From Bacteroidia bacterium (GTDB lineage: Bacteria > Bacteroidota > Bacteroidia > UKL13-3), in the NCBI GenBank assembly GCA_041675505.1, contig JBAYTR010000010.1:67895-131894 (forward strand): 64,000 nt of DNA. Direction: 5' to 3'. The position numbers were made by a program, and so were the translations under genes. Position 1 is the first letter of the stretch, and each line of letters opens with the position of its first letter. A model generated the notes under the pieces. That model searched no databases. It saw nothing but the letters and a program-made list of their open reading frames with translations, and was not told where the DNA came from. Positions 14,181 through 54,811 of the stretch are shown here, piece after piece.

Positions 14181-14367
14181 ACGTATTAAAATTTAGGTAA
14201 GACAAAAATATACTTTTTGGGATAAAAACCACAGGGAAGTGCAAGTTTTTTGAGGGAGCTGTTGTGTTGCCTTTCTGTTTGATAATTTGAAAGAGACCTT
14301 GTGGTTGCTGTTTGCTGAGCGTTTATTTAGGTAGGGTATTATTTTAGCTATAAGCTACATAAAAGAA

Positions 14368-14390
14368 AAGCGTAGGCGCAACCTACGCTT
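14368..14390 (-). terminator. rho-independent terminator ending the AT-rich minus-strand operon
   Basis: AAGCGTAGG-cgcaa-CCTACGCTT stem-loop. On the minus strand it is followed by TTTTCTTTTAT. It sits 70 bp downstream of the permease stop. Confidence 0.55.
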
Positions 14391-14459
14391 AGGTTGACCT
14401 CCCATAATTCATACATGTGGCATAATGCTTTATTCAAATCATTATTTGCAAGCTGCTTT

Positions 14460-15970: not shown

Positions 15971-17514
15971 TAGTGCTTGACAATTTCCTTTTGTGCATTT
16001 GTAACTCTTGATTTTGCAAATGTCGCTTTAGAATAAATTTGATTAAATATTTTATAGCAATATGTTTCTTCTTTATCTCTCAAGGAAAATTGAGAATTGT
16101 TTTTTTGAATGTTTTGATATTCTTCTTCACTCAAATTGTTGTTTGCAAATTCATGTAGCAAACCCTTTCCTCTTTCAACGCCTCCAATTCCAGCCCCTTC
16201 CATCAAAGTCATTTTCTCTCTCGAATAAATGTAGTCAGGCAATAAATCTTTAAATGCTTCTCTCAAAACAAACTTTGTTGTTGTATCTCCTGTTTTTGTC
16301 TTTGCCACTTTTAAAGACGGATGAATGCTCAAAGCATATTCAACTAAAGTTCTGTCAAGAAAGGGTTCACGAACTTCAACGGCATATTTCATTCCTGTTT
16401 TGTCAACTCTCAAAAGTTGTGTCCTGTATAAATCGTTTAGAAGATTTTTAATTTCATTTTGAAATTCTGTTTCATCAGGAAGGGAAAGAAAATCACCATA
16501 GCCGCCAAATATTTCATCGCTGCCCTCGCCACACAAAACAATTTTGAAACCTTTGTCGTGTGCTAACTCTGCCAATTTCATTGAAAGTAAAGAGCCACGA
16601 ATAGGATTTGGTTCAAATGTCTCAATGGAATAAATCACATCAGGAACATTTTGAAGCAAATTTTCTTTGCTTGTTTTAATATGATGAAACTTCAAATTCA
16701 AATCATTGCAAAGTCGCTTTGCATAAATCACGTCTTCGCCTGAATCTTCACCGACAATTAAAGCTGTAACATCATTGTGATAACTGCAACACAATAAATG
16801 AACTATTGAACTGTCAATGCCACCACTTAAAAAAGTAGCAATAGGCAAATCTGTTTCAACTCTTTTCTTTACAGCCAATTCAACAAGTTCACGAACATTA
16901 TTTGTAATTGTGCTTACTGAATCAGTATTCCATTTTGTGCTTGGCGTTTTATAATACTGGAAAACTCCTTCATTGGTTATGTAGTGTGCTGGTTTAAGTT
17001 CTTCAAATGTTTCTACTTCCAAATCAGTAAAGGATTTCATTTCAGAAGAAATATAAACTACATTCTCACTCTTGCAGTAGAAGAATGGTTTCACTCCAAA
17101 AAAATCTCTTGCTCCGAAAAACTTATTTTGAACGGAATCATAAATTAGAAATGCAAACATTCCTTCTAACTGCTGCAAGAAATTTATTCCGTGTTCTTCA
17201 TAAAGATGAACCAAAACTTCTGTGTCGCAATCTGAAATAAACTTGTGTCCTTTCATTTGCAATTCTGATTTCAAATTTTTGTAGTTGTAAATCTCACCGT
17301 TAAAAACAACTCCTATTGTTTTGTTCTCATTGAAAAAAGGTTGTGTGCCATTTGGTCTGTCAACTATTTTAAGGCGAACACTTCCTAAGATTGAATTTCC
17401 TATTTGAACTTGTTTAGGTGCAGTATCTCCCCGATGCTCAATTTTTTTGAGCATAAACTCCATTTCTGTTTTGCCTTTTGGAGTAGGATTAATAATTGCT
17501 GCGATACCACACAT
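15970..17514 (-). CDS. asparagine synthase (glutamine-hydrolysing) family amidotransferase
   Basis: MCGIAAI Ntn-Cys, PP-loop SGGIDSS, 514 aa. One-nt overlap with the ABC ATPase start. Confidence 0.8.
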   Translation of the reverse strand: MCGIAAIINPTPKGKTEMEFMLKKIEHRGDTAPKQVQIGNSILGSVRLKIVDRPNGTQPFFNENKTIGVVFNGEIYNYKNLKSELQMKGHKFISDCDTEVLVHLYEEHGINFLQQLEGMFAFLIYDSVQNKFFGARDFFGVKPFFYCKSENVVYISSEMKSFTDLEVETFEELKPAHYITNEGVFQYYKTPSTKWNTDSVSTITNNVRELVELAVKKRVETDLPIATFLSGGIDSSIVHLLCCSYHNDVTALIVGEDSGEDVIYAKRLCNDLNLKFHHIKTSKENLLQNVPDVIYSIETFEPNPIRGSLLSMKLAELAHDKGFKIVLCGEGSDEIFGGYGDFLSLPDETEFQNEIKNLLNDLYRTQLLRVDKTGMKYAVEVREPFLDRTLVEYALSIHPSLKVAKTKTGDTTTKFVLREAFKDLLPDYIYSREKMTLMEGAGIGGVERGKGLLHEFANNNLSEEEYQNIQKNNSQFSLRDKEETYCYKIFNQIYSKATFAKSRVTNAQKEIVKH

Positions 17515-17518
17515 TTTA

Positions 17519-18322
17519 TTATTTTTGTTCTTCTTTATTAAAATTTGAAAACCAAGGTCTGCTTCTTATTCCTTTACGAAAAGAGTAAATCTGTAAACTC
17601 GGAAGGTCGGGGGCAATCAATTCTTTTTCTTCATCCGATGTGTATGTGAGAAAAACATTTTGAAAAAAATTCTTTTCTACATACTGCTTTTCAATTTGAT
17701 TCATTGTAATGTAAGCATATGCCGATTCATCAGTTGAATTAAAACGCAAGTCGCCAAAAATTTGATTGTTTGAATATCTGTAAGAATGTTTACCTGCTGA
17801 TTTTTTTAAAAGTTCAAATGATTCTCTACCTTTTAAAAACTCTGGTATGTTATGACTTCCATTCTCATTTATAATTGCATTGATTAATGCATTCATGTCT
17901 TTTAAGTGATGTGATTTTGCAAAAGGCATTAGCACTTCGGACATGAGAACATGTGTGTAATTGAATTCATTTACAACGTTTCTTATCCCTTTGAAATAGC
18001 TTTTGTAATCTTCGGGCTTATAGCCATTAAGCATTGCATGTGTGTCAGTAAAAATTAATGTTAGCTGAGCATCCAATTTGTAATGCTTTTCAATAACTCG
18101 CAGAAAACCGAAAAGATTTAGCAACGCATCAAAGTCGTATTTGTCGGGGTACTTTTTATCGGATGCGCCCCAATATGAAATGAAACGAATATATTTCTTG
18201 TTATGCTTTACTCTTTCATTAACATACTTATCTAACTCCGCAATTTGTTTCTTGCGAACCTCAATCTTTTTTGCTGCTAAAAAAGAGCCGATTGTTTTTC
18301 CGTTTCGCAAATTGCTATTCAT
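17519..18322 (-). CDS. hypothetical 267-aa protein, enzyme-like, no family recognised
   Basis: AT-rich ORF inside the coupled operon. Motifs ISYWGASDKK and LTLIFTDTHAML loosely resemble the catalytic-core motifs of tRNA-dependent cyclodipeptide synthases, but key CDPS residues do not align, so it is left unassigned. Confidence 0.55.
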   Translation of the reverse strand: MNSNLRNGKTIGSFLAAKKIEVRKKQIAELDKYVNERVKHNKKYIRFISYWGASDKKYPDKYDFDALLNLFGFLRVIEKHYKLDAQLTLIFTDTHAMLNGYKPEDYKSYFKGIRNVVNEFNYTHVLMSEVLMPFAKSHHLKDMNALINAIINENGSHNIPEFLKGRESFELLKKSAGKHSYRYSNNQIFGDLRFNSTDESAYAYITMNQIEKQYVEKNFFQNVFLTYTSDEEKELIAPDLPSLQIYSFRKGIRSRPWFSNFNKEEQK

Positions 18323-20189
18323 TGCGATAAAAATATTTGCTTTCGTGTTTTAGTTTAAACAATTCCCGTGAAGACAAAAAAACAATAACTAAACAAATTA
18401 AGAAACAATAAAAAATATAATTGCCATATTTAATTGTATGTAAAACTTCTTTGTATTCTATAGGGTCGCTATTCGGAACAACTTCTTGCCTTGCAAATTC
18501 ATGTTTCAATTCATCTAATTTTGGAGTTTTAGGATGTAAAATGTGAAACATACTTGATGTAATCTCAAGTAAAATAAATAACGAGCCTATAAAGTAAAGT
18601 AACGTGGGTTTTCTTACATGCTTCCATAATGAACTTTCTATAAACAGTCGAAAGTTTTCAACTTTATTAGTGAACAGTTTTAAGAGATATAAAAAGGGCA
18701 ACAATGGTGTTAAAAATATTCGCCAACCTGCCCACTTTTTTGTGTGTAACGTTTTTCTTTCAAGTTCAAAATAATGCTTTTCATTTTGACGATATTCAGC
18801 TAACAAATCATCAGCTACGAACAAACTGTAATCAATAGTTTGAGGAACAGGTATGCCCTCAGCCCTATATCGCAAAAGCGTTAATTCTTTCAAATCATCT
18901 TTAATCGGATTAGTTTTTGAGTAATACAAATTGCCAATATCTCTCCACTCTCTTAATCTATCTACATAGTATTTAAGAATTTCTTCAAGTGAAAATTTCT
19001 CTTTTTTATTATTGATAAGAAACTGGATATAACTTTTAATAGTTTCATCTGCGATTAAGAGGTTAAGCAATTCGTCTTGGGTATCATCATCATATTTGAG
19101 TTTTGTTTTCAGAAAGTGAATTAAGCCCGTTGTATCGCTTTTCTTTAGATACGAATGAATTCTGTGTAAATTTTTATCAATGCCGTAGAGCAACCCTTTA
19201 AGTTTTTCTGAATTTTCAGGTGCATTATTACCTAAGATGCCCGTAAACATGAAACTTTGATCGTTGTCATACGCTAAGTTTTCTAATTCAATAATTTTTT
19301 TGTTTGCTTCTCCATTATGCTTATCAAGTAAGAAATCAATACTTATAAAATCACATGAGAATGAGACAGAATTATTGCAATAGTCATCGTTATCTACTTC
19401 TTCGTCAATGGTTCCATTATTTTTATATGTTTTTTTACTTACTTTACGAAGTTCATATCCAAAATCTTTTCTTTCTTCTACCAATGTAGATGTAGATGTT
19501 TTGTATTGCTCATAATAGATATGACCAATACAAAATCCTGTTGAAGGAGTATCATAACAGATGATTGATTGAGTAATATTTTCTTTTCCGTATTGAGACG
19601 GAAAATTTTGTGGATTCTTATATAATCTACCTAAGTCATTAGACGAACTAGTTAAATCTCCACTTCCTACAGCCAGAAAAGCAATTTTTGAAACTAATCC
19701 ACCAATAACCTTTGTATTGGTTTTTAATATTTTCTCTTTAAAGAGGTTTACCCCATTCTCTTTAAAGACTAAATTGTTACTATTGTCAACATCTAAACAT
19801 TGTGAAAGATTGAGATTAAACTCTTTATTACAAATATCTTTCTTTGTTTTAATGTCAAGCAAGTCCTGAAACTTTTTAAGTTCTGCTTGTAGCTTGGTGG
19901 CATCGCAATGGTTCAAATAGATAAGATGAGATGGGTCGCAAATGGCTGCGTCTGCTAAACCAAGCAAAACGGAAAAGGTTGCAAATCCATCACCCTTTAA
20001 TTTCTTGCTCTGGTCAAACCTGAAATCATTTTTTGTTCCAATTATAACTACTTCTAATTCCGAAAATGGTGTGTCATGGAAATCATTGCCATAGTATGCA
20101 ACATAAAATGGAAGGTATAATACCGTGTCAGTTGATACGGCAATTTCAAGTTTGTCTTTTGTTCGTATGGAAGAAAATCCTGAATCCAT
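18315..20189 (-). CDS. NMT1/THI5/SsuA-like substrate-binding domain (N-terminal, no signal peptide) fused to a C-terminal region with about 3 TM helices
   Basis: N-terminal ...LYLPFYVAYYGN...GFATFSVLLGLADAAICDPSHL... parallels the ...YLPFYIAQEKGFF...AQFGIGDPVFTAISREKG region of the adjacent canonical SBP. C-terminal hydrophobic segments WAGWRIFLTPLLPFLYLL, LLYFIGSLFILLEI and IFYCFLICLVIVFL. Confidence 0.6.
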   Translation of the reverse strand: MDSGFSSIRTKDKLEIAVSTDTVLYLPFYVAYYGNDFHDTPFSELEVVIIGTKNDFRFDQSKKLKGDGFATFSVLLGLADAAICDPSHLIYLNHCDATKLQAELKKFQDLLDIKTKKDICNKEFNLNLSQCLDVDNSNNLVFKENGVNLFKEKILKTNTKVIGGLVSKIAFLAVGSGDLTSSSNDLGRLYKNPQNFPSQYGKENITQSIICYDTPSTGFCIGHIYYEQYKTSTSTLVEERKDFGYELRKVSKKTYKNNGTIDEEVDNDDYCNNSVSFSCDFISIDFLLDKHNGEANKKIIELENLAYDNDQSFMFTGILGNNAPENSEKLKGLLYGIDKNLHRIHSYLKKSDTTGLIHFLKTKLKYDDDTQDELLNLLIADETIKSYIQFLINNKKEKFSLEEILKYYVDRLREWRDIGNLYYSKTNPIKDDLKELTLLRYRAEGIPVPQTIDYSLFVADDLLAEYRQNEKHYFELERKTLHTKKWAGWRIFLTPLLPFLYLLKLFTNKVENFRLFIESSLWKHVRKPTLLYFIGSLFILLEITSSMFHILHPKTPKLDELKHEFARQEVVPNSDPIEYKEVLHTIKYGNYIFYCFLICLVIVFLSSRELFKLKHESKYFYRNE

Positions 20190-20191
20190 AT

Positions 20192-21205
20192 TTAATTTGT
20201 CTTGGTATCTGAAATAGATTTTTCGGCAAAGGAATTATCTACTGCATCTGATGTTGGTTTCATTTCCTTCATGTCGCCTATATCAACTCTTACTTGTATC
20301 GCTTTCTGCCAAGCTTCATCACTCATTACAGCATGGTCTGGAATTGTTTTATCTGCTACCATTCTTTTTACAGCATTTGCAACAACTGCTTTGTCAAGGT
20401 TGGGGAAAAGTTTTGCTGCAATTTCTGCCGTTCCTGCTTCATCTGTGTGGCAATACTGTAATGCCTTTTCAATTGCGTTTACAAATTTTTGAACAGTTTC
20501 CTTATTGGCGTTTATGTATTCCTCTGTCGTTGTTAAGCCAGTGAAAGCAAATCTTCCATAAAACTGCGGTGAGGAGTAAACAACTTTGTAACCTTTACTT
20601 TCAGCTATTGATGTTCCTGGTTCTAAGTCCATCGCAATATCGGCACTTCCATTTTCAAGTAAAGCCAACTGTGAACCAATTGGGGCTTGAACAATGATTG
20701 TGTTTTTTAATAAATCTCCTCCTTTCATGAGTGTCTTTTTCATCAAAGCGTAATTTGTTGACGGGTCGGGGAATGTTCCAACTTTCAAACCAGCCAAATC
20801 ACCAGGCTGTTCTATGGTTTTGATGTTATCCTTGTTTGTTACACCCCAAATTGTTACTCCGTCAACGATGGAACCAATTACTTTTCCTTTTGCTCCTTTC
20901 TCTCGTGATATGGCAGTGAATACAGGGTCGCCAATTCCAAATTGTGCTTCGCCTTTCAAAACGGTTGCAAAAACCTGGTCGTCATTACCTGAAAACTTTA
21001 CAGTAATTTCAAGTCCTTCGTCTTTGAAAAAACCCTTCTCCTGTGCAATGTAGAAAGGTAGGTAAATTAGATACTTCTCTTGTCCCCACTGCGCTACTAT
21101 TACTTTGGTGACTTCGGTGGTTTTTGGCTTTTCAGTGTTGCATGAATTGCATCCTCCCAAAATGATTGTGAGAACCAGTAATGCTGCTAAAACTATTTTA
21201 TTCAT
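20192..21205 (-). CDS. ABC transporter substrate-binding lipoprotein, NMT1/THI5-like (SsuA/TauA family)
   Basis: Lipobox LTIILGGC followed by an SBP fold with NMT1-like motifs. Confidence 0.8.
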   Translation of the reverse strand: MNKIVLAALLVLTIILGGCNSCNTEKPKTTEVTKVIVAQWGQEKYLIYLPFYIAQEKGFFKDEGLEITVKFSGNDDQVFATVLKGEAQFGIGDPVFTAISREKGAKGKVIGSIVDGVTIWGVTNKDNIKTIEQPGDLAGLKVGTFPDPSTNYALMKKTLMKGGDLLKNTIIVQAPIGSQLALLENGSADIAMDLEPGTSIAESKGYKVVYSSPQFYGRFAFTGLTTTEEYINANKETVQKFVNAIEKALQYCHTDEAGTAEIAAKLFPNLDKAVVANAVKRMVADKTIPDHAVMSDEAWQKAIQVRVDIGDMKEMKPTSDAVDNSFAEKSISDTKTN

Positions 21206-21261
21206 TTTGACGGTTTTAATTGCTATTTTATATTGTAAAGATAGTTATTCACTCGATAAAT

Positions 21262-22788
21262 TCAACAATTGCTTCCCTTCTCAAAAAGTGTTTTCCAAAG
21301 GAATGTATCAAACAATTGTGCTAAGTTGTAAGTCAAAAACAAAAATAAAGTTCCTCCCAATAGTATTGCCAAAAACCATTTCCAAAGGTTGCTGTAAATT
21401 TTGAGTTTGCCATCAATGAATGCTACATCAGCATTGAATTCTTTATCATTATTAAGGATTCTCTGAATGTCTTCTTTTTCTAAAAGGTCAGTGTAGCGTT
21501 CTTTCAAATTTGTGTAGCTGTCAACGAATCTTTTGCGTTGCTCTTTCACTTCCCACTTTGCTACTAAGTAATAAAGGAATGAGCCGAACAAAAAAACAAT
21601 TGAAAGAACTGCTGTGTCAAGTGTAAACACATTTACAAAATCTCCATTGCCCAAAACTTTTATTGCGATTGCAGAAAAGTAAAAAGTGATTAGCGCCAAA
21701 GAACTTTTTTGAAAACCACTTGCAAATGTTTCAATGACTTTGTTTGCTCTGTTGTTGAAGTCAAGCAACTGGTCAGAAATTTTATTTCTGATTTCAATGT
21801 ATTGCTTGATGTTCTGCTTCTCGTAAACTTTGTAACTTGATTGAATAGATTGAAATGGATGCCCTTTCAATTCTAATTCACCACTATTTTCAAAGTGAAG
21901 TGAAATAATGTTTCTGGCTAAACCAATTTTATCATTGAGGTTTCCGCCACAATAAACCCAATTGTATATATTGAAATATTCTTTCGTTCCATCTATCGGC
22001 AATGCTTTTACATCAACTTTTCCTTTGATTGATTTATAACCGTTGATTTTAAATTCAAGTTCGTTGGCTTTTAGCGAAGTAATGTCAAACAAATAAACAA
22101 CGGAAAGCACAACAGCATAATGATTGAAAAGCAAACACAGCTTGCTGTGTTTTGCATTTTCAATTTGCAACTGAAAATCATCAGGCGTTAAGTTGTGTTC
22201 TTCAATGTTGGTGTAATTACTTGCTGAAAGAATGCTATCAAGGCGTTTATGCCTGTCAGCAAATGTTTGAGTAGGTGTGGTAGCACCTATTTGTGTAAAG
22301 AAAATATTTGCTGTATTGAATGGCTTGTCAAGATTCAACACTTTGAAGTTTACAAAAGGTGTGTTTGATAAAACACGATTGAAAACCGCATACGCTTCTG
22401 CTACTGACAAACTTTCAAGTGTTGCTGTGAAGATTTCTAAATCATATATAGAAATATTGTTTGAAATATTTCCTTTAGTGATTTTGAAGGTTGCTGTGAT
22501 TGGTTCGCCTTCCTGATGCAAATATTCCTTATCAAGTTCAGTTTTGAAATCGGTAAAATTTGAACTGGTTGAATAAAATGATTTTGGGTCGGCTTCTCCA
22601 AATTTGATTGTGAATGTTAATTGGTCGTTAGGCTCTAAAAAGTTGTAGGCGGTTTGAATGCTTGCAACCTCTGTCGATGAAAAGTTTGTTGCTGACAATT
22701 CACAAATAAATTCTTTGTCATTCTCTGAAACAGTTGTTTGAGAATAAGTAGAGAAAAAAGAGTGAATGAATTTATCAGCAAATTGCAT
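21262..22788 (-). CDS. hypothetical membrane-anchored protein: about 350-aa soluble N-terminal domain plus about 3 C-terminal TM helices
   Basis: 508 aa. TM segments LALITFYFSAIAIKVL, AVLSIVFLFGSFLYYLVA and WKWFLAILLGGTLFLFLTY. One-nt overlap with the upstream gene. Confidence 0.5.
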   Translation of the reverse strand: MQFADKFIHSFFSTYSQTTVSENDKEFICELSATNFSSTEVASIQTAYNFLEPNDQLTFTIKFGEADPKSFYSTSSNFTDFKTELDKEYLHQEGEPITATFKITKGNISNNISIYDLEIFTATLESLSVAEAYAVFNRVLSNTPFVNFKVLNLDKPFNTANIFFTQIGATTPTQTFADRHKRLDSILSASNYTNIEEHNLTPDDFQLQIENAKHSKLCLLFNHYAVVLSVVYLFDITSLKANELEFKINGYKSIKGKVDVKALPIDGTKEYFNIYNWVYCGGNLNDKIGLARNIISLHFENSGELELKGHPFQSIQSSYKVYEKQNIKQYIEIRNKISDQLLDFNNRANKVIETFASGFQKSSLALITFYFSAIAIKVLGNGDFVNVFTLDTAVLSIVFLFGSFLYYLVAKWEVKEQRKRFVDSYTNLKERYTDLLEKEDIQRILNNDKEFNADVAFIDGKLKIYSNLWKWFLAILLGGTLFLFLTYNLAQLFDTFLWKTLFEKGSNC

Positions 22789-23825
22789 TAGCTATTGCCG
22801 TTTTGTCTGTTGCTGAAATATTGATAGCCTTGTTCCGATTTGATTTTCACATATCTTGTTCCGTCTGCATCTTTTTCCGCTGTGATTATTGTTTCAAGGT
22901 TCGGAATATCTTCTTTCAAGTGCAAATCAATTTGGCTTGTCAAGGGGATAGTGTTTAGAAATTTTGCCCTAATCTTTGCCTTTACAATCGTGAACTGTTC
23001 GTCAAAAGGTGTTCTTGGTTTTGATGGCAATTGTCGGATTTGAGTTTTGATTTCTGCAACATCAAGGTTGGAATCGAAGGGAGTGTAGTTTCCAATTGCT
23101 GTGTCCAAATACTCTTGCATGTCAAAATTGTCGTTGGCTCTGAAATAGCGAACGGTGCTATTACGCAAATGCAAATAATCTTGTGGGTGTTTCTTTTTCA
23201 GTTTTGTAAATATGCCTTTGTCAATTGCTTCAAAAGCATTTTCTGTATTGTCCTCGTCTGAATAAACTTTGGTGAGTTCTAAAAAATCTTTCCACCAATA
23301 ATGAGAAAGGTTTGGATTGGTGTCATACACCAAAACATTAGTTACAGTTTGGTCGCTGTTTAGCGAACAAACAAATGCTTTGAAAACCTTTTTCTTTAAT
23401 GGAAGTCCTCTTGAAATAGTAAAATTTATTTCGTTTAAGAAATCGCTGTGGTCTGCTTTACAGATTACAAGTTTGTTGACGCTGTTTTCTGTTACCAATG
23501 CTTGAACAACAATTCCCTTTTGAATCTCAACTCCAAGTTTCAACATTTTTGCTTGTGCCTCTTGCTCTTTCTTCAAAAGTCGTGTTACTATTGTTGATGC
23601 AATTGCAGGAAATTCTTCACCTGCAATAATTTTCGTAATCTGTCCTCTTACTTCTGTTGTGTCGCTGTCAAACTTGAAGTTTCTACCACTGCTGCCTGTC
23701 GTAATGAGATTTACCAGTCCTTGCAAGTATGTGTTGAAGTCAGCACCATAAATTGATTGCTCAATTGATTCAACCGCTTGTTCATGAATGTCAACCTTAA
23801 ATATTTGTATGGCTGTTATGTCCAT
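22788..23825 (-). CDS. hypothetical soluble protein, first gene of the AT-rich operon
   Basis: The ORF-track start at 23891 adds 22 residues. The Met at 23825 (MDITAIQIFKV...) has an AT-rich upstream region typical of Bacteroidota starts. Faint resemblance to NA37/YejK-type nucleoid-associated proteins; unverified. Confidence 0.5.
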   Translation of the reverse strand: MDITAIQIFKVDIHEQAVESIEQSIYGADFNTYLQGLVNLITTGSSGRNFKFDSDTTEVRGQITKIIAGEEFPAIASTIVTRLLKKEQEAQAKMLKLGVEIQKGIVVQALVTENSVNKLVICKADHSDFLNEINFTISRGLPLKKKVFKAFVCSLNSDQTVTNVLVYDTNPNLSHYWWKDFLELTKVYSDEDNTENAFEAIDKGIFTKLKKKHPQDYLHLRNSTVRYFRANDNFDMQEYLDTAIGNYTPFDSNLDVAEIKTQIRQLPSKPRTPFDEQFTIVKAKIRAKFLNTIPLTSQIDLHLKEDIPNLETIITAEKDADGTRYVKIKSEQGYQYFSNRQNGNS

Positions 23826-24304
23826 GTTGTATATTTTAAAATGTGAAAAATTGTTGGTTAACGGGTGCTGATAAAGCGTTGGCGATTGCACACTTTTGAT
23901 TTCGCCTTTGGGTTGGCTTGTACGTGAGCTGCAAATGCAAATGTGTACTGGTGTTTTTTGTTTTCCAGCTGAAGCGTTTACAATTCAAGGAGGTGTCGTT
24001 GGTGTCAAGTTTTGTCAAAAAGTTCATTTTTCATCTGTCAGTTTAATGTTAACACTGTTGCCATAGGGTTTCCGGCAGCTTTTTTATATGCGAAGGTTTG
24101 CCTGGTTTTGTAAATATATCAATTTGCTCATAACTCTTCAAAAAGGGGGTTGTTTTTTGAATACTTTGTGATGTAAATCGCTTTGAAAATCTTGGCCAAT
24201 TAGGCCACGGGAATTTGCAAGACAGGTGAACAGGTTAGGTTGCATAGCATATTGGTTTTCAACGGCAAATTAGAAGGTTTTTTATTACTGTGCAAATTTA
24301 TTAT

Positions 24305-49295: not shown

Positions 49296-49958
49296 TTATT
49301 TCTTCACTACTTTCATCCACATTTTTAATGGAAACACGGGGCGGCCGTTGCTTTGGGTGCGCACAGCCATCAGCTTATCCAGTACGTCCAGTCCTTCTAC
49401 AATCTCACCAAAAACAGTGTATTGTTTATCGTAAGAAGGGAGCCCGCCAACGGTAGTATAGAGTTCTCGTTGCGCTTCACTGATGGTATCTTTTTTCTGG
49501 CGCTCAATAATGTTGAGTTCTGAAAGCGAAAACTTTCTGCCCTGTACTATAAAAAACTGTGAACCGTTGGATTCTCTGTTGGGGTTTGCTTTATCGCCTA
49601 CCCTTGAGGCTACCAGTGTGCCTTTTTTGAGGTATAGCCCTTCCACAATTTCTGATTCCAGCGTGTAGCCCGGGCCACCGCCACCCAACACGGCATCGTC
49701 ACTTGCTTCGTAGGAGTTGGGGTCTCCGCCCTCAATAATGGAGCCCGGTTTTACCAAATGAAACAACAGTTCATTGTAGTATTTTTGTTTAACCAGCGAA
49801 ATAAAATTGTCGCGGTGTAAAGGTGTTTCATTGTACAGTTTCACTTTCATGTCACCTGAGTCGGTCATGATAAGCACGTACTTGAATTTTTCCTTTTTTT
49901 GTGCCTGAGCAACCGTGCACAGCACCAGTAAGCCGAAGATGAAAAGCAGTTTTCTCAT
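49296..49958 (-). CDS. peptidylprolyl isomerase, cyclophilin type (secreted)
   Basis: ...FHRVIKDFMIQGGD-like region: ...LFHLVKPGSIIEGGDP...GTLVASRVGDKANPNRESNGSQFFI... Confidence 0.85.
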   Translation of the reverse strand: MRKLLFIFGLLVLCTVAQAQKKEKFKYVLIMTDSGDMKVKLYNETPLHRDNFISLVKQKYYNELLFHLVKPGSIIEGGDPNSYEASDDAVLGGGGPGYTLESEIVEGLYLKKGTLVASRVGDKANPNRESNGSQFFIVQGRKFSLSELNIIERQKKDTISEAQRELYTTVGGLPSYDKQYTVFGEIVEGLDVLDKLMAVRTQSNGRPVFPLKMWMKVVKK

Positions 49959-50353
49959 GGGTTTATCGGTATTTGTTCTTCTTCAAAATAACGCACTATG
50001 TGTTTTTTCAAAAATATTTCCTGACTAAACAAATCGTAAGCCGGCAAAGGTTTCTGTAACTCCCACTGCGGCCAACCGTCCTGATCTAAGGCCGTTAACT
50101 GGTAGTAGCCGGAGTAGCTCAGAATTTTGCAGGTAGCAATGTGCATCAGGTCCATCTTTTCTTCTTTGGTGAACTCGCGCAAAGCACCCAACTCCCGCAT
50201 CCCGATTAAAAACAGTACTGCGTTTAAATCAGGTTTTTTGCGAAACTGCTTCTTCAGTGAAAAAGTAATTTGTATATATTTTTCTTTGGTCTCCTCGTCA
50301 ATGGTTTCAAAGACGCGGTCAAAGTAGTGTTCGTTGCTCATGCTAATCGCCAA
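49955..50353 (-). CDS. hypothetical protein
   Basis: 132-aa ORF translationally coupled to the PPIase gene. No family recognised. Confidence 0.45.
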   Translation of the reverse strand: MAISMSNEHYFDRVFETIDEETKEKYIQITFSLKKQFRKKPDLNAVLFLIGMRELGALREFTKEEKMDLMHIATCKILSYSGYYQLTALDQDGWPQWELQKPLPAYDLFSQEIFLKKHIVRYFEEEQIPINP

Positions 50354-50460
50354 AGATAGGGAAAATGCAGATTATGCCCTGTTTTTGTGCTCATTTTAGG
50401 GCAAAACAGCGAAAGGGACTGCTGAAACGCAGACCAAAACCAATGAAAGGAAGCAGGTGA

Positions 50461-50667
50461 CTACTCTTTTACCTTGCAGGTGCTTATACCGAAAATCTGG
50501 TACAGCGGGCAATAACTGAGCAGGCTGGTTAAGGTAAACACTGCAGCTAAAGCCAGCAGTACCTTGCCTAAAACTCCGTCAACCACACCGGTAAAGTGAA
50601 GCACTACAAAAACGATTGAAACCAGTATACGAATGATACGGTCGGCATTGCTCATGTTTTTTTTCAT
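50461..50667 (-). CDS. DUF2892 (YgaP-like) small membrane protein
   Basis: MKKNMSNADRIIRILVSIVFVVLH... with C-terminal ...CPLY... typical of DUF2892. Confidence 0.6.
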   Translation of the reverse strand: MKKNMSNADRIIRILVSIVFVVLHFTGVVDGVLGKVLLALAAVFTLTSLLSYCPLYQIFGISTCKVKE

Positions 50668-50833
50668 ATCTGATAAATTAAAAAAGTTGTGCTATACCCA
50701 CAGCTATGGCAATACAAACTATACAAGCCAATATAAAACGAATAACCTTGGGCATAACCTTTCTTTGTTCAAAGATGAGCATTTTAGGTAAACAGCAAAA
50801 ATGATTTTCATCAGCTAATGAGATGGGTTAGAG

Positions 50834-50890
50834 TGGGCAAAAGGTGTTTCGCTGTTTCGGAAACTTGGTGTATTTTGCCTTTCTAAAATT
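50834..50890 (+). promoter_or_regulatory. 57-bp promoter/operator-like element, copy 1, immediately upstream of the 50899 gene
   Basis: GGGCAAAAggtgTTTCGCTGTTTCGgaAacTTggtGTATTTTGCCtTTCTAAAATTA. Near-identical to 51524-51580. Contains the GGCAAAA...TTTTGCC inverted repeat. A TAtgTTTG (-7-like) box follows. Confidence 0.5.
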
Positions 50891-50898
50891 ACGTATGT

Positions 50899-51381
50899 TT
50901 GTTATACAGTAATTCACATGATGAGTTTTATAGAATAATGCCAATGGCTTTTAGAATCTGCCTTTCTGTACTGTCTCTTTTCTTCATATACGCATGTGAA
51001 ACAACCACAGACCCTGCTTCCAGAAATGATATTACCATTATTAACTCATTCAATCAGGAGGTAACAATTACCCTGTATGAATCAATGTTTACATTCAAGG
51101 TTAAGCCCGGTAAATCCTACACGTATTATCAGGGAGCAGGTGACGGCCCGCCACCTTTGGATTTTAATGGTTCTGACTCCATTGTTGTAACGTTTGCAGA
51201 TGGCAAGAAGAAAGCAGACTATAACTGTAATGATAGAGCAGTTACTTCTATTATTCAGAATTGTCGCGCAGACACTATCAGCTTATTCAACAGCTTTCGC
51301 TATATCTCGCAAGAGTTAAGTAAACACAACTTCATGAATTATTATACTATTACGCAGGAAGATTATAATGAAGCAAAATAA
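50899..51381 (+). CDS. hypothetical secreted or lipoprotein
   Basis: Probable start at the internal MPMAFRICLSVLSLFFIYAC. Lipobox-like. Confidence 0.45.
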   Translation: MLYSNSHDEFYRIMPMAFRICLSVLSLFFIYACETTTDPASRNDITIINSFNQEVTITLYESMFTFKVKPGKSYTYYQGAGDGPPPLDFNGSDSIVVTFADGKKKADYNCNDRAVTSIIQNCRADTISLFNSFRYISQELSKHNFMNYYTITQEDYNEAK

Positions 51382-51523
51382 TTAAGAGGTTCCAAACAGT
51401 CAGGGAGGATATTCATCCTCCCTTCTTCCAAGAAACACTCCACAAAGCAATACACCTCTCGCAGGATATTTATCCTGCAAGCACAATTCAATTAGAACCT
51501 AACAGCAGCCAGTAACAAGGCCT

Positions 51524-51580
51524 GGGCAAAACGCATTTCGCTGTTTCGCACATTTACCGTATTTTGCCCTTCTAAAATTA
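51524..51580 (+). promoter_or_regulatory. 57-bp promoter/operator-like element, copy 2, immediately upstream of the M1 peptidase gene
   Basis: GGGCAAAAcgcaTTTCGCTGTTTCGcaCatTTaccGTATTTTGCCcTTCTAAAATTA. Confidence 0.5.
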
Positions 51581-51591
51581 TATTTTAACAC

Positions 51592-54030
51592 ATGAAGTTT
51601 TTTGTTTCCCTTTTCGCCATGCTGGCAGTTGTTCAACTGCAGGCACAAACGCTTACCACCCACAACTGTTATGTACGCGACCCCAATGCCAGTCCGCGGG
51701 AGCACAACATTGACATCGAGCGTCAAAAACTGGAGGTAGAGTTTGAACCCGCCAAGGGTTTGGTAAAGGGCAAAGTAACCCACAGCTTTACCGTTATTCA
51801 AAAGCAAGTGGATTCTATATTTTTTGATGGTCCCGGCATTCGTATCCAAGAGGCATCTATAGATGCTCAAACCCTTCGTTACAAAACCAATGCGGAGGGT
51901 GTGTGGGTATATCCGGCCAAAACACTGAACTGGGATGAGAAACATTTTATCACCTTTGTGTACGAGTGTAACCCGCGCAAAGGCATTTATTTCATCGGCT
52001 GGCACAACGATAACAGCAACAAGGGAGACGCCTTTAACCGCACCCGCAACCAGATATGGACACAGGGGCAGGGTATTGATAACCGCCACTGGATACCCAG
52101 CTACGATACACCCAACGACAAAATGCTTACCGAGGTGTTGGTTAAGTTTGATAAGGAGTATCAGGTATTAAGCAACGGAACGGCTTTAGGCATTAAAGAC
52201 AACAAAGACGGCACAAAAACCTGGCACTACAGCATGACCCGCCCGCATGCGAGTTACCTGCTCATGTTGGGCATTGGTAAATATGCGGTGAAATCAACTA
52301 AAAGCACGGCCAGCAAAACACCGGTGCATTTTTGGTACTACCCTGAGTTCAAAGAAAAAGTAGAACTCACCTCCGTTTACACCGAGCGTATGGTAGATTT
52401 TATGGAGAACGAAACCGGCATGAAATACCCTTGGGAAAGTTACTCGCAAATTATGGTGCAGGAGTTTTTATACGGTGCCATGGAAAACACCACGGCTACC
52501 ATTTTCGGAGACTTTATGGCCGTTGACCAACGCCAGTTCATTGATAAAAACTACATTGGTGTTAACTGCCATGAGTTTGTACACCAGTGGTTCGGAGATT
52601 TTATCACCGCCCGTACCTACAACGATACTTGGTTGCAGGAGAGTTATGCTACCTATTATCCCAAAAAGTTTTTCCGCCAGTTGTATGGTGATGAACACTA
52701 TGAATGGCAAAAGCGCGGAGAACAAAATTCCGCTTTAGATGCATCCAAAAAAGACCGTTTGGCCGTTGGTCATTCCAATGGCGGTACTGCACGTGTGTAT
52801 CCTAAAGGTTCATTTGTAATTGGCATGCTCAACTATGTGCTGGGCGAAGAACAATACAAAAGGGGATTAAACCATTACCTCAAAAACCACGCATACGGCA
52901 ATGTACAAACCAACGACCTGATGATGGCCTTTCACGATAAGCTGGGCATTACCCTCGATTGGTTTTTTGACCAGTGGATATACCGTGGTGCAGAGCCACA
53001 CTATGAGGTAAATTATCAGGATATAAAAGGCAGCAGCCGTTACACACAAATTCAGGTAAAACAAATTCAACAGGTAGATGAAGTGGTGGGCTACTTTAAA
53101 ATGCCGGTGGTTTTTGAAGTGAACTATACTGACGGTTCAAAGGAAAGTGTTAAAGAGTGGGTGCAGGGTAACGCTACCACCGTTCAAGTTCCCAACAAGA
53201 ACAACAAAGAAATTGCTTTTGTATTGTTCGATCCCGGGAATGAAATTTTGAGACAGCTCACCTTTAAAAAATCAACAGAGGAATTAAAGGCACAAGCCCT
53301 AAAAGCCGCACACATGATTGACCGCTACGATGCCTTGTTGGGTTTGCGCGAGGTAAGCATCGAGGAGAAGCGTCAAACATTGGTAGAGGTATTTAACAAA
53401 GAAACTTTCCATGCCACACGTAATGAAGTTATCAGCCAACTGGCGAAAGACAAGGATGGAAGGAGCTTGGAAATACTGCGCAAAGCATTTTCGGATAAAG
53501 ACGTGAATGTGCGTCAGGCGGCAGTTAATGCAGTGGATGCACAAGGTGAGTGGGTAGAGTATTTTAAGAAGTCGCTGACCGATTCTTCTTACAACATTAT
53601 CAGAACAGCCTTAACCAAACTAGGCGAACAACAACCCGCTGAAATAAATGCGTGGTTACAAACCACCGACAACCTTTACGGGCACAACCACGACCTGCGC
53701 ATCAAGTGGCTGGAGTTGGCCATTCGCAGCGGCAAGGACAACTACAAAGAGGAACTCATAGGCTACAGTAGCCGTCAGTTTGAGTTCAGAACACGTAATG
53801 CCTGCTTTACTGCACTTAAATCACTTAACCTGTTTAATGAGCAGGTGGCAAATAATTTACTAAATGCCGCCATGAGTCCAAACGGAAGATTAAAAGGCCC
53901 TGCCGTGGAAACCCTACAGTACTTTATGCAGCAATCGGGTGCTATGGGTACACTAAAACAACATTACAACAAAGCCGATTATTCAGCAGAACAAAAAGAC
54001 CTGATTAAGAAAGCCGGTATTAATCTCTGA
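51592..54030 (+). CDS. M1 family metallopeptidase (aminopeptidase N-like) with C-terminal HEAT-like repeats
   Basis: GAMEN motif (YGAMENT), HEFVHQWFGD...E zinc motif. 812 aa. Signal peptide. Confidence 0.85.
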   Translation: MKFFVSLFAMLAVVQLQAQTLTTHNCYVRDPNASPREHNIDIERQKLEVEFEPAKGLVKGKVTHSFTVIQKQVDSIFFDGPGIRIQEASIDAQTLRYKTNAEGVWVYPAKTLNWDEKHFITFVYECNPRKGIYFIGWHNDNSNKGDAFNRTRNQIWTQGQGIDNRHWIPSYDTPNDKMLTEVLVKFDKEYQVLSNGTALGIKDNKDGTKTWHYSMTRPHASYLLMLGIGKYAVKSTKSTASKTPVHFWYYPEFKEKVELTSVYTERMVDFMENETGMKYPWESYSQIMVQEFLYGAMENTTATIFGDFMAVDQRQFIDKNYIGVNCHEFVHQWFGDFITARTYNDTWLQESYATYYPKKFFRQLYGDEHYEWQKRGEQNSALDASKKDRLAVGHSNGGTARVYPKGSFVIGMLNYVLGEEQYKRGLNHYLKNHAYGNVQTNDLMMAFHDKLGITLDWFFDQWIYRGAEPHYEVNYQDIKGSSRYTQIQVKQIQQVDEVVGYFKMPVVFEVNYTDGSKESVKEWVQGNATTVQVPNKNNKEIAFVLFDPGNEILRQLTFKKSTEELKAQALKAAHMIDRYDALLGLREVSIEEKRQTLVEVFNKETFHATRNEVISQLAKDKDGRSLEILRKAFSDKDVNVRQAAVNAVDAQGEWVEYFKKSLTDSSYNIIRTALTKLGEQQPAEINAWLQTTDNLYGHNHDLRIKWLELAIRSGKDNYKEELIGYSSRQFEFRTRNACFTALKSLNLFNEQVANNLLNAAMSPNGRLKGPAVETLQYFMQQSGAMGTLKQHYNKADYSAEQKDLIKKAGINL

Positions 54031-54037
54031 TAACACC

Positions 54038-54727
54038 ATGAAAAAAAACTGTGCACTATTCATCATCAGCCTGCTTGCTGCTTTGCCGTTAAAGGCGCAG
54101 GTGAGCAAATACAGGTCTGAAGGCTGGGAGTTGATTCATTCGTTTTCCGAGTATAATGTTGCCGGTAAGCGGGTTGACAATCGTTTGCGATTCTCAGCAT
54201 TTTTTCACGTTAACCAACGCAGGCACTTTGATTTTGGCAAATCCTTCGGAGTGTTTACAGGTTTTGCGGTGCGCAACGTAGGCTTTATTGCCCGTGAAAG
54301 CGATAGCCTTACCGTTAAACGAAGGGTATATACCATGGGCGTTCCGCTGGCTTTTAAGGTGGGCAACATGAGTAAGATGATTTTCTTTTATGCCGGTGGA
54401 GAGGCTGAACTGGCGCTAAACTACAAAGAAAAACACTTTGTTGACGGCAGCAAAGAGAAGAAGTTCAATGAGTGGTTCAGTGAACGTACCCCGTTGTTTA
54501 TGCCCTCGGTTTTCGCAGGGTTTCAGAACAAGAAGGGGTTCAACCTGTGTTTTAAATACTATTTGAATAATTTCTTCAATACCGGCTACAGCCATAGCGG
54601 GGTAAAACCCTATACACTTTCGAAGGCCAATGTGTTTTACGTGTCGGCTTCGTACAGTCGTAAGAACCGCAAAAGCGCACGGACAAAGGACAAAACAACG
54701 GTTAATCCCGTTACATTGGCCCGCTGA
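54038..54727 (+). CDS. hypothetical outer-membrane-type protein
   Basis: Signal peptide MKKNCALFIISLLAALPLKAQ. Alternating beta-strand-like pattern. Four nt from the upstream gene. Confidence 0.45.
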   Translation: MKKNCALFIISLLAALPLKAQVSKYRSEGWELIHSFSEYNVAGKRVDNRLRFSAFFHVNQRRHFDFGKSFGVFTGFAVRNVGFIARESDSLTVKRRVYTMGVPLAFKVGNMSKMIFFYAGGEAELALNYKEKHFVDGSKEKKFNEWFSERTPLFMPSVFAGFQNKKGFNLCFKYYLNNFFNTGYSHSGVKPYTLSKANVFYVSASYSRKNRKSARTKDKTTVNPVTLAR

Positions 54728-54750
54728 AAACGCCTCTTGTTTTTTGCCTG

Positions 54751-54800
54751 AAAAGCGTATTTTTGCTGCGCTTTAAAAAATGATTAACAATTAAATAGTT
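54751..54800 (+). ncRNA. candidate SAM-II-like riboswitch in the metK leader
   Basis: AAAGCG-UAUUUUUGCUG-CGCUUU hairpin with a U-rich loop, followed by UAAAAAAUGAUUAAC (A-tract able to form a pseudoknot/triplex with the loop U-run), 12-60 nt upstream of the metK ATG. Pattern match only. Confidence 0.3.
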
Positions 54801-54811
54801 TTTACTACCAT

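What the first reader, a model, noticed from the sequence alone, without database searches (positions are those of the whole stretch)
50834..51591. Same 57-bp promoter/operator-like element precedes two consecutive, unrelated genes
GGGCAAAA-n4-TTTCGCTGTTTCG-n..-GTATTTTGCC-n-TTCTAAAATTA is present at 50834-50890 and again at 51524-51580, with about 48/57 identity. Each copy ends 8-12 bp before a start codon (hypothetical secreted protein; M1 aminopeptidase). The element contains the inverted repeat GGCAAAA/TTTTGCC around a TTTCGCTGTTTCG core and overlaps a TAnnTTTG-like -7 box. It therefore looks like a shared promoter with an embedded operator, a regulon signature. A weaker cousin (GCGTATTTTTGCTGCGC) sits before metK.
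Basis: seen in the sequence. Interest (0 to 1): 0.5.

Follow-up and report, generated by a model that had tools for sequence, protein, structure and literature searches.

The report
Duplicated promoter flanking an inserted gene
The two near-identical 58-bp stretches are two copies of the aminopeptidase gene's own promoter, made when a small accessory gene was inserted at a strain-variable spot, and they are not the mark of a wider gene-control network.

Summary
The repeat is real: 50834-50891 and 51523-51580 share 48 of 58 bases, with a chance expectation of about 2e-10 for the window. It is not a regulon signature. A profile of the element finds no further copy in 78 kb of the source contig or in about 100 related loci. 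An exact-pattern scan of 185,579 species genomes finds it only at this same locus, in two Bacteroidia MAGs.

Close relatives (89-95% nt identity in the M1 gene) carry at least seven structural versions of the interval between gene B and the M1 gene. One (L086) is an empty site. There the left flank of copy 1 runs straight into a single element and then the M1 ATG, exactly one 689-bp repeat period shorter. Another (L099) has a head-to-tail junction in which the duplicated unit also includes 91 nt of M1 coding sequence.

The element spans about -49 to +9 of a Bacteroidota-type promoter. TATTTTGC fits the TAnnTTGY/TAnnTTTG -7 box, which distant M1 orthologues carry at the same place. The GGCAAAA/TTTTGCC inverted repeat decays in relatives without compensation. 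There is no RNA-structure signal.

Verdict: a promoter duplicated by local rearrangement in a hypervariable islet. It is ordinary, though a tidy example.

The parts
51523..51580 (+). Copy 2: the resident promoter region of the M1 aminopeptidase gene, about -49 to +9 relative to the inferred transcription start
   Evidence: It is conserved in all 8 alleles of close relatives, and its right 33 nt are invariant. It is the only copy in the empty-site allele L086. It ends 11 nt before the M1 ATG.
50834..50891 (+). Copy 1: a paralogous copy of the same promoter region, upstream of the inserted lipoprotein gene C
   Evidence: It matches copy 2 at 48/58 positions. It is absent from L086, L003, L085 and L092. 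L002 has a diverged version that keeps GGGTAAAA, TTTCGCTGTTT and a TAAATTGC box at the same spacing.
51560..51567 (+). -7 box TATTTTGC of copy 2 (TAnnTTGY form of the Bacteroidota TAnnTTTG box)
   Evidence: Distant M1 orthologues carry TAnnTTTG(C) or TATTTTGC 10-25 nt before the ATG. The consensus and the TAnnTTGY variant, placed at -12 to -5, are described in PMC9723704 and PMC7366714.
50871..50878 (+). -7 box TATTTTGC of copy 1
   Evidence: Same sequence and same position within the repeat.
51536..51548 (+). Block TTTCGCTGTTTCG of copy 2, covering the -33 region. TTTC lies 20 nt upstream of the TA of the -7 box.
   Evidence: Spacing counted from the sequence. The published -33 consensus is TTTG (PMC7366714), so the match is only 3 of 4. 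L092 has TTTCACCGTTTCG here.
50847..50859 (+). Block TTTCGCTGTTTCG of copy 1
   Evidence: Identical to the block in copy 2. L002's copy 1 keeps TTTCGCTGTTT.
50894..50901 (+). A second, canonical -7 box (TATGTTTG) just downstream of copy 1. It is a possible own promoter of gene C.
   Evidence: Pattern survey. It is kept in L099, where 19 extra nt separate it from the repeat.
50892..51522 (+). 631-bp segment between the repeats (leader, gene C and hairpin module). It is missing from the empty-site allele.
   Evidence: L086 joins window position 50833 to 51523. Relatives carry other genes here.
50938..51381 (+). Gene C: a 147-aa predicted lipoprotein with no Pfam family. It is an accessory gene.
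   Evidence: There are only 6 homologues in 5.8 billion proteins. Its more distant homologues (56-65% identity) lie in a different context, after a 556-560-aa gene.
51398..51522 (+). Hairpin module with stem-loops at 51404-51423 and 51462-51479. It is the conserved right-hand end of every filled allele and is probably a terminator or insulator in front of the M1 promoter.
   Evidence: Fold z-score -4.7. Both stems are invariant in 6 alleles, with no covariation. The module is absent from L086.
51592..54030 (+). M1-family aminopeptidase gene with a signal peptide, driven by copy 2
   Evidence: Pfam Peptidase_M1 and Peptidase_M1_N.
50461..50667 (-). Gene B (YgaP-like membrane protein), the conserved left-hand neighbour of the variable interval
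   Evidence: Pfam PF11127. It is present in L002, L003 and L086. In L004, the 78%-identity relative, a minus-strand gene whose start resembles gene B's lies about 100 nt from the M1 ATG; this was read from sequence only.
50393..50414 (-). Short look-alike TTTCGCTGTTTTGCCCTAAAAT upstream of gene A. It is probably not a member of the repeat.
   Evidence: Exact 11-mer match, but the profile E-value is 88. The TTTCGCTG part reads TTTCGGTG, TTTTGGTG and TTTGGATG in L003, L086 and L002.

Best explanation
The 58-bp element is the core promoter and first transcribed bases of the M1 aminopeptidase gene in this Bacteroidia lineage. It has four conserved blocks:
- an upstream block, TGGGCAAAA, at about -49 to -41;
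- a -33-region block, TTTCGCTGTTTCG;
- a -7 box, TATTTTGC;
- the start-site region, TTCTAAAATTA.

The interval between gene B and the M1 gene is a hypervariable islet where different accessory genes come and go between strains. In the window strain a 631-bp segment sits between two paralogous copies of this promoter. The segment holds a leader, lipoprotein gene C and a two-hairpin terminator-like module. As a result the incoming gene sits behind one promoter copy and M1 keeps the other behind the terminator module.

Shown:
- the two copies are homologous;
- they flank an indel that is exactly one repeat period long;
- the element occurs nowhere else in the sequence examined;
- a relative has a head-to-tail duplication junction that includes M1 coding sequence.

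Inferred:
- the element is an active promoter, with a start near 51572-51574 for M1 and 50883-50885 for gene C;
- the blockwise conservation between the paralogues reflects promoter function;
- the duplication arose by illegitimate or short-homology recombination (tandem duplication, possibly followed by gene conversion or deletion) and not by a dedicated recombinase.

Any co-regulation of the two genes would come from common descent of their promoters, not from membership of a regulon.
For: - Empty site. L086 (GTDB MAG DATGWX010000255.1) has cyclophilin, gene A, gene B, the copy-1 left flank, one element and then the M1 ATG. This corresponds to window 50833 joined to 51523.
- Variable content at the same place. 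L002 has a 214-aa gene behind a diverged copy 1. L003 and L085 have two minus-strand genes and no copy 1. L092 and L100 have other combinations. All of them end with the hairpin module, copy 2 and M1.
- Duplication junction. L099 has 125-nt identical ends and a junction joining window 51682 to 50857, so the duplicated unit includes the promoter and 91 nt of M1 coding sequence.
- No other copies. The nhmmer profile finds only the copy-2 orthologues, window copy 1 and the L002 half-copy (E = 0.17), across the window and all loci then held (about 0.8 Mb) and, separately, loci L101 and L102, which extend the source contig beyond the window ends. The genome contigs pattern scan gave 10 hits. Two are this same locus in Bacteroidia MAGs. 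The other eight come from unrelated taxa and lack the rest of the element in their flanks.
- Promoter identity. Distant M1 orthologues carry TAnnTTTG(C), TATTTTGC or a close variant (some read TATTTTCG or lack the TA) 10-25 nt before the ATG. Canonical TAnnTTTG boxes precede many operon-leading genes in the window. The consensus and the TAnnTTGY variant at -12 to -5 are published for Bacteroidota (PMC9723704, PMC7366714).
- L002's diverged copy 1 keeps GGGTAAAA, TTTCGCTGTTT and a TAAATTGC box at identical spacing, while the rest has drifted.
- No RNA signal. There are no Rfam hits, and the element's fold z-score is only about -1.2.
Against: - No transcription start data exist for this organism, so promoter activity of either copy is inferred from sequence alone.
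- The -33 match is imperfect (TTTC instead of TTTG).
- The conserved upstream blocks TGGGCAAAA and TTTCGCTGTTTCG are more than a minimal promoter needs and could be a regulator site.
- Gene C also has its own canonical -7 box (TATGTTTG, 50894-50901) just after copy 1, so copy 1 may not be the promoter actually used.
- The direction of history is unresolved. The empty allele L086 sits among filled alleles by M1 similarity, so it may be a secondary deletion between the repeats and not the ancestral state. Copy 1's spacers differ from copy 2 at 9 of 14 positions, more than strain divergence would predict.
- Only about 40% of the source contig, and no complete genome of this strain, could be scanned for degenerate copies.
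Confidence: 0.8

Rival explanations
1. Shared operator or regulon element. A transcription factor binds the GGCAAAA/TTTTGCC inverted repeat or the TTTCGCTGTTTCG core and co-regulates the lipoprotein gene, the aminopeptidase gene and other genes elsewhere in the genome.
For: - The differences between the paralogues cluster in spacers and leave four blocks intact, including two upstream blocks not needed for a minimal promoter.
- L002's diverged copy 1 still keeps GGGTAAAA and TTTCGCTGTTT.
- A short look-alike lies upstream of gene A at 50393-50414.
Against: - There is no further copy in 78 kb of the contig or in the related loci.
- The exact core pattern occurs once per genome in the two related MAGs, at this locus.
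- The left arm of the palindrome decays in L002, L003, L092 and L100 without any compensating change in the right arm, which is simply the -7 box.
- Block 2 reads TTTCACCGTTTCG in L092.
- The look-alike's TTTCGCTG part is not conserved in three relatives.
- The two copies are related by duplication, so their similarity needs no selective explanation.
- No regulator gene is evident among the neighbouring genes that have Pfam assignments. Gene A and the 229-aa gene have no Pfam family, so they cannot be ruled out as regulators.
Confidence: 0.07
2. Recombination (att-like) site of a small mobile gene cassette. The 58-bp repeats are the joints left by integration of a circular gene C plus hairpin cassette into the M1 promoter, and the cassette can excise again. 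L099 would be the circle and L086 the empty site.
For: - Direct repeats flank the insert exactly, and an empty site exists.
- L099 assembles as an 845-bp unit with identical ends, which is compatible with a circle.
- Cassette content differs between strains, and each filled allele ends in a hairpin-rich module. L100 has a degenerate second module after gene C.
Against: - No integrase, transposase or recombinase was found within about 10 kb on either side.
- The L099 junction joins M1 nt 91 to the middle of copy 1. It is not a repeat-to-repeat joint, so it fits an illegitimate tandem-duplication junction better than site-specific excision.
- The left boundaries of the variable segment differ between alleles: L003 breaks 20 nt upstream of copy 1, and L092 and L100 break inside the signal-peptide coding region.
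- The repeats are only 83% identical.
- The element is found at no other locus.
Confidence: 0.08
3. Cis-acting RNA leader. The element is transcribed, and the GGGCAAAA...UUUUGCCC hairpin acts as a 5'-UTR regulatory structure shared by both mRNAs.
For: An 8-bp stem is predicted in both copies.
Against: - The fold z-scores of about -1.2 are not better than shuffles.
- Rfam gives no hits even at E = 1.
- The stem is lost without compensation in relatives.
- The stem's 3' arm is the -7 box, so most of the hairpin would lie upstream of the inferred transcription start.
Confidence: 0.02

Closest known systems
Bacteroidota primary-sigma promoters (-33 TTTG / -7 TAnnTTTG) and the TAnnTTGY variant (motif SM5 of Flavobacterium psychrophilum)
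   Same: TATTTTGC fits TAnnTTGY exactly. It lies 24 nt before the M1 ATG, where orthologues carry TAnnTTTG(C). An A-rich leader without a Shine-Dalgarno sequence follows, as is typical of the phylum (PMC6847099 abstract; PMC9723704).
   Different: The -33 position has TTTC rather than TTTG. The two extra conserved upstream blocks have no described counterpart. No transcription start data exist here. Whether TAnnTTGY boxes are read by the primary sigma factor or by another one is not settled in the cited paper.
Direct repeats flanking an indel, produced by tandem duplication or short-homology recombination (segmental duplication and deletion in hypervariable genomic islets)
   Same: Two same-orientation copies bound the variable DNA. 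One allele has a single copy and lacks exactly one repeat period. A relative has a head-to-tail junction. Gene content at one site differs between strains at 89-95% nt identity.
   Different: The repeat unit here coincides almost exactly with a complete promoter, so each side of the insertion keeps a promoter. The copies have diverged in the spacers only.
Regulon operators (a shared transcription-factor site upstream of several operons)
   Same: A conserved element with an inverted repeat lies upstream of two genes at promoter distance.
   Different: There are only two occurrences, they are adjacent and they are related by duplication. The palindrome is not conserved in orthologues. No further sites were found.
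Integron gene cassettes (ORF plus hairpin-forming attC inserted downstream of a resident promoter)
   Same: Small ORFs, each followed by a hairpin-rich module, vary between strains and are inserted next to a resident promoter. There is a possible circular form (L099).
   Different: There is no integrase. The junctions are not at a fixed site. The hairpin module does not resemble attC in any tested way. The promoter itself is duplicated, which integrons do not do.
Bacteroides invertible promoters (promoters flanked by inverted repeats and flipped by a site-specific recombinase)
   Same: A Bacteroidota promoter region containing an inverted repeat.
   Different: The arms are only 7-8 bp long, enclose 30 bp and include the -7 box itself. 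No inverted-orientation allele was seen among 8 relatives, and no recombinase gene lies nearby.

Membership tests
Bacteroidota sigma-A-type promoter | -7 box TAnnTTTG (or TAnnTTGY variant) a short distance upstream of the gene | tested here: met
   TATTTTGC lies at 51560-51567 and 50871-50878. Most distant M1 orthologues carry TAnnTTTG(C), TATTTTGC or a close variant (TATTTTCG; two lack the TA) 10-25 nt before the ATG. The consensus is taken from PMC9723704 and PMC7366714.
Bacteroidota sigma-A-type promoter | -33 TTTG motif 19-21 nt upstream of the -7 box | tested here: inconclusive
   TTTC, not TTTG, lies 20 nt upstream of the TA. The -33 motif is weak or undetectable in some Bacteroidota (PMC7366714).
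Bacteroidota sigma-A-type promoter | Transcription start about 5 nt downstream of the box | not testable with these tools
   There are no transcriptome data for this metagenomic organism. The predicted starts are about 51572-51574 and 50883-50885.
Regulon operator / shared transcription-factor site | Independent occurrences upstream of several unlinked genes | tested here: not met
   The nhmmer profile finds only this locus in 78 kb of the contig and the related loci. The exact-pattern scan of genome contigs finds the motif once per related MAG, at this locus. Degenerate sites elsewhere in the unsampled genome cannot be excluded.
Regulon operator / shared transcription-factor site | Palindrome or repeat conserved in orthologous promoters | tested here: not met
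   The left arm changes from TGGGCAAAA to CAAGCAAAA, CCGGCAAAA or CAAACAAAA in relatives, with the right arm unchanged.
Regulon operator / shared transcription-factor site | A cognate regulator | not tested
   No regulator domain was seen among neighbours with Pfam hits. Gene A and the 229-aa gene have no Pfam family.
Local duplication flanking an indel | An allele with one copy that lacks exactly the intervening DNA plus one repeat | tested here: met
   L086 joins window 50833 to 51523, with a single element and 94-96% flank identity.
Local duplication flanking an indel | A duplication junction, or copied neighbouring sequence beyond the motif | tested here: met
   L099 joins window 51682 (M1 nt 91) to 50857, within a contig that has 125-nt identical ends. 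This is in a relative. In the window itself the repeat stops at 58 bp.
Structured cis-regulatory RNA / riboswitch | Match to a known family, or a significant and conserved fold | tested here: not met
   Rfam gave no hit at the gathering threshold or at E <= 1. Fold z-scores are about -1.2. The stem is lost in relatives.
Integron-like cassette system | Integrase gene adjacent to the insertion site | tested here: not met
   No recombinase or integrase Pfam family was found among called genes within about 10 kb on either side.
Integron-like cassette system | Every cassette ends in a recombination hairpin, with fixed junctions | tested here: inconclusive
   The hairpin module ends every filled allele, and a degenerate copy follows gene C in L100. 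However, the left junctions differ between alleles.
MITE / REP-type dispersed repeat | Many dispersed copies in the genome | tested here: not met
   There are two copies only, both at this locus.

The most novel reading that the evidence does not exclude
The promoter-sized repeat and the invariant two-hairpin module together define a previously undescribed way of exchanging cassettes in Bacteroidia that needs no integrase. Small accessory genes would enter and leave the M1 promoter region as units of gene plus hairpin module plus promoter copy, possibly through small circles such as the 845-bp L099 unit. The duplicated promoter would serve both as the recombination substrate and as a guarantee that the resident and incoming genes both stay expressed.
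Probability: 0.06. Interest if true: 0.6.

Novelty: new member of a known kind. Interest (0 to 1): 0.2.

Why it matters
Mostly this is a caution. Two adjacent genes that share a long upstream motif need not mark a regulon. Here the similarity is inherited through a local duplication at a strain-variable insertion site.

The locus is still a clear natural example of an accessory-gene insertion that leaves both the newcomer and the resident gene with a complete promoter. It also adds one more instance of the TAnnTTGY-type -7 box in front of a secreted peptidase in an uncultured Bacteroidia lineage.

It does not open a new question. The only feature worth a further look is the invariant hairpin module that closes every filled allele.

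Tried and rejected
- Known RNA family: Rfam at the gathering threshold on the whole window, and at E <= 1 on 50300-51700, gave nothing.
- RNA hairpin: the element's folds are no better than shuffles.
- Sigma-54 promoter: by eye, the GG-N10-GC spacing is not met in either copy. No tool was run for this.
- E. coli-type sigma-70 promoter or intrinsic terminator scan: nothing at the element, and no canonical terminator.
- Third and fourth motif copies: the look-alikes at 50393-50414 and 50781-50800 on the minus strand seemed at first to extend the family to all four promoters of the cluster. Their matching bases are not conserved in L002, L003 or L086, and the profile E-value for the first is 88. 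I therefore do not count them.
- Genome-wide family: the exact two-gap pattern TTTCGCTGTT-N0-20-TTGCC-N0-4-CTAAAAT in 185,579 species genomes gave 10 hits. Two are this locus. The other eight lie in unrelated taxa, about the number I estimated by hand for chance.
- Travelling with gene C: the more distant gene C homologues (56-65% identity), which lie in other genomic contexts, lack the element.
- Simple Campbell-type integration into an L086-like recipient: it predicts chimeric copies. Instead, copy 2 is L086-like along its whole length and copy 1 differs in both spacers, so this simple form is not supported.
- Covariation in the hairpin module: none, because all the pairs are invariant.
Full report
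**1. The observation**

Reading 50400-51900 and running repeat finder confirms one 58-nt direct repeat. It lies at 50834-50891 and 51523-51580, has 48/58 identical bases and a spacing of 689. It is the longest and best repeat in the whole 64-kb window. From base composition, 48/58 or better is expected about 2.5e-10 times among all same-strand pairs in the window.

The ten differences fall almost entirely in two spacers. Four blocks are identical: TGGGCAAAA, TTTCGCTGTTTCG, GTATTTTGCC and TTCTAAAATTA. Four identical runs of 9 nt or more have p = 0.004 by permutation, but I chose that statistic after seeing the data.

Copy 2 ends 11 nt before the ATG of a signal-peptide-bearing M1 aminopeptidase gene (51592-54030; Pfam). 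Copy 1 ends 7 nt before a mechanical TTG ORF start. The likely start of the downstream 147-aa lipoprotein gene (gene C) is the ATG at 50938 or 50944, 46-52 nt further on.

**2. Source and neighbourhood**

The window is part of ENA metagenome contig ERZ27247358:k141_387550, which is 196.8 kb long. DUF5686, T9SS sorting domains and the promoter style place it in Bacteroidota. The closest named records are 'Bacteroidia bacterium' MAGs.

The local gene order is:
- a DUF5686 protein, a cyclophilin and gene A (128-132 aa, no Pfam), all on the minus strand;
- gene B (YgaP-like, minus strand);
- copy 1, gene C, a two-hairpin module, copy 2 and M1, followed by a 229-aa gene and metK.

**3. Is it a dispersed motif?**

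It is not.
- The exact 11-mer core occurs three times in the window. Two are the repeat. The third (50404-50414, minus strand) is discussed in section 8.
- An nhmmer profile was built from window copies 1 and 2 and the copy-2 orthologues. It finds only the copy-2 orthologues, window copy 1 and a half-copy in L002 (E = 0.17). The search covered the window and all loci held at that point, about 0.8 Mb.
- A separate search of loci L101 and L102, which extend the source contig beyond both window ends and bring the scanned stretch of the contig to about 78 kb, gave nothing.
- An exact scan of 185,579 species genomes with TTTCGCTGTT-N0-20-TTGCC-N0-4-CTAAAAT returned 10 stretches. Eight lie in unrelated taxa and lack the rest of the element in their flanks. 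That is about the seven chance hits I estimated by hand from pattern length and database size. The other two are this same locus in Bacteroidia MAGs, one match per genome.
- Rfam gives nothing.

**4. Comparison with close relatives**

The search for related loci with the M1 protein, the genome scan and context look-ups for gene C homologues produced eight alleles of the interval between gene B and M1. They come from organisms with 89-95% nt identity to the window in the M1 gene.

| Allele | Content between gene B and M1 |
|---|---|
| L086 | Nothing. The sequence left of copy 1 (…CATCAGCTAATGAGGTGGGTGAGGT) runs directly into a single element and the M1 ATG. This equals window 50833 joined to 51523, exactly one repeat period shorter. 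|
| Window | Copy 1, gene C, hairpin module, copy 2 |
| L002 | A diverged copy 1, an unrelated 214-aa gene, hairpin module, copy 2 |
| L003, L085 | No copy 1; two minus-strand genes (226 aa, and 682 aa with an HExxH motif); hairpin module; copy 2 |
| L092 | Another upstream gene, gene C (84% identical) with a different signal peptide, hairpin module, copy 2 |
| L100 | The 3' end of the 214-aa gene, gene C with a third signal peptide, a degenerate hairpin module, a 138-aa gene, hairpin module, copy 2 |
| L099 | See below |

L099 is a 970-bp contig with 125-nt identical ends. Its first 141 nt match window 51542-51682, which is the right part of the element plus 91 nt of M1 coding sequence. They are joined head-to-tail to window 50857 onwards, which is the right half of copy 1, gene C, the hairpins, copy 2 and M1. 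L099 therefore records a tandem duplication, or a circle, whose unit includes M1 coding sequence.

In the 78%-identity relative L004, a minus-strand gene whose start resembles gene B's lies about 100 nt from the M1 ATG, and the element is absent apart from a -7 box. This was read from the upstream sequence only.

The two window copies are thus paralogues that bracket a strain-variable insertion. The element belongs to the M1 gene and not to gene C: the more distant gene C homologues (56-65% identity) lie in other genomic contexts and lack it.

**5. What the element is**

The upstream regions of 30 M1 orthologues (35-54% protein identity) share almost nothing except a TAnnTTTG(C) or TATTTTGC box 10-25 nt before the ATG.

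That is the -7 box of the Bacteroidota primary sigma factor, described together with a -33 TTTG motif (PMC7366714). Flavobacterium psychrophilum also has a TAnnTTGY variant at -12 to -5, whose listed targets include a dipeptidyl-peptidase and other amino-acid-scavenging genes (PMC9723704). TATTTTGC fits TAnnTTGY exactly.

If the box is placed at -12 to -5, the start falls near 51572-51574 for M1 and 50883-50885 for gene C. The 58-bp repeat then spans about -49 to +9:
- block 1 lies at -49 to -41;
- block 2 covers the -33 region, with TTTC 20 nt upstream of the TA;
- block 3 is the -7 box;
- block 4 is the start site and the first transcribed bases.

Within the window, canonical TAnnTTTG boxes precede many operon-leading genes, including metK (TATTTTTG).

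L002's diverged copy 1 keeps GGGTAAAA, TTTCGCTGTTT and a TAAATTGC box at the same spacing, while the rest has drifted. That pattern is what one expects from a promoter paralogue under selection for function.

These assignments are inferences from sequence. No transcription start data exist.

**6. The inverted repeat and RNA ideas**

The left arm reads TGGGCAAAA only in the window and L086. In L002, L003, L085 and L100 it is CAAGCAAAA, in L099 CCGGCAAAA and in L092 CAAACAAAA. The right arm, which is the -7 box, never changes. The palindrome is therefore not maintained.

RNA folding of either copy is no better than shuffled sequence, with z about -1.2.

**7. How the duplication arose**

This is not settled. 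The L099 junction joins M1 nt 91 to the middle of copy 1 with little or no homology. It looks like an illegitimate tandem-duplication junction.

The empty allele L086 groups with the window and L003 by M1 similarity, inside a set of filled alleles. It may therefore be a secondary deletion between the direct repeats and not the ancestral state. The copy-1 spacer (GGTG), shared by the window and L002 against CGYA in all copy-2 versions and in L086, points the same way. Recombination between strains could also produce this pattern.

No integrase or transposase lies within about 10 kb. The left junctions of the variable segment also differ between alleles. I therefore favour ordinary duplication, deletion and recombination in a hypervariable islet over a dedicated cassette system.

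**8. Loose ends**

- The look-alike at 50393-50414 on the minus strand (TTTCGCTGTTTTGCCCTAAAAT, upstream of gene A) shares the 11-mer and two other words with the element. Its TTTCGCTG part reads TTTCGGTG, TTTTGGTG and TTTGGATG in L003, L086 and L002, whereas TTTTGCCCTAAAATGAG is conserved. I treat the extended match as largely coincidental, but it is unexplained.
- The hairpin module (51398-51522) folds strongly, with z = -4.7. Both stems are invariant in six alleles, with no covariation. It closes every filled allele. It is probably a terminator or insulator in front of the M1 promoter, but I did not test this.

**9. Verdict**

The 'shared promoter' reading is reasonable.

This is a duplicated Bacteroidota promoter bracketing an accessory-gene insertion. 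It is a new instance of known phenomena and of low general interest.

Noticed in passing
window 51398-51522 (stems 51404-51423 and 51462-51479): A two-hairpin module with the shared core AGGATATTYATCCT, 57 nt apart. It folds strongly (z = -4.7) and both stems are invariant in six alleles. It closes every filled allele just before the M1 promoter and is absent from the empty allele. L100 has a degenerate second copy after gene C. There is no Rfam match and no covariation.
   Followed up: partly
L099 1-970 (JGI Ga0183872_10809173): The contig has 125-nt identical ends and a head-to-tail junction joining window 51682 to 50857. This indicates an 845-bp tandem unit or circle that carries gene C, the hairpins, the promoter and 91 nt of M1 coding sequence.
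   Followed up: partly
window 50393-50414 (-): The short look-alike TTTCGCTGTTTTGCCCTAAAAT lies upstream of gene A. The TTTCGCTG part is specific to this strain, while TTTTGCCCTAAAATGAG and a nearby TGCCCT/AGGGCA stem are conserved in relatives. Its role is unknown.
   Followed up: partly
window about 14000-24000: A low-GC island (0.32-0.36, against 0.43-0.47 elsewhere). It encodes ABC-transporter parts, an NMT1-like binding protein, an asparagine-synthase-like enzyme and three large ORFs without any Pfam family. It may have been acquired horizontally.
   Followed up: no
L093-L098 (gene C homologues, 56-65% identity): In more distant Bacteroidia, the gene C homologue is the second gene after a 556-560-aa protein without a Pfam family. 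In L093-L096 it is followed by a protein with a T9SS sorting tail. In L097 the pair lies next to an IS110 transposase and defence genes (methylase, GmrSD, HEPN).
   Followed up: no
window 50938-51000, compared with L092 and L100: Gene C alleles share the mature protein from ...ACETT onward but have three unrelated signal-peptide and 5' regions. The recombination junctions therefore lie inside the signal-peptide coding sequence.
   Followed up: partly
window 54728-54811: metK has a canonical TATTTTTG -7 box 54 nt before its ATG. No SAM riboswitch was detected by Rfam anywhere in the window.
   Followed up: partly
window 49955-50341 (-) and 54038-54727 (+): Gene A (128-132 aa) and the 229-aa gene downstream of M1 are conserved in relatives but have no Pfam family.
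   Followed up: no
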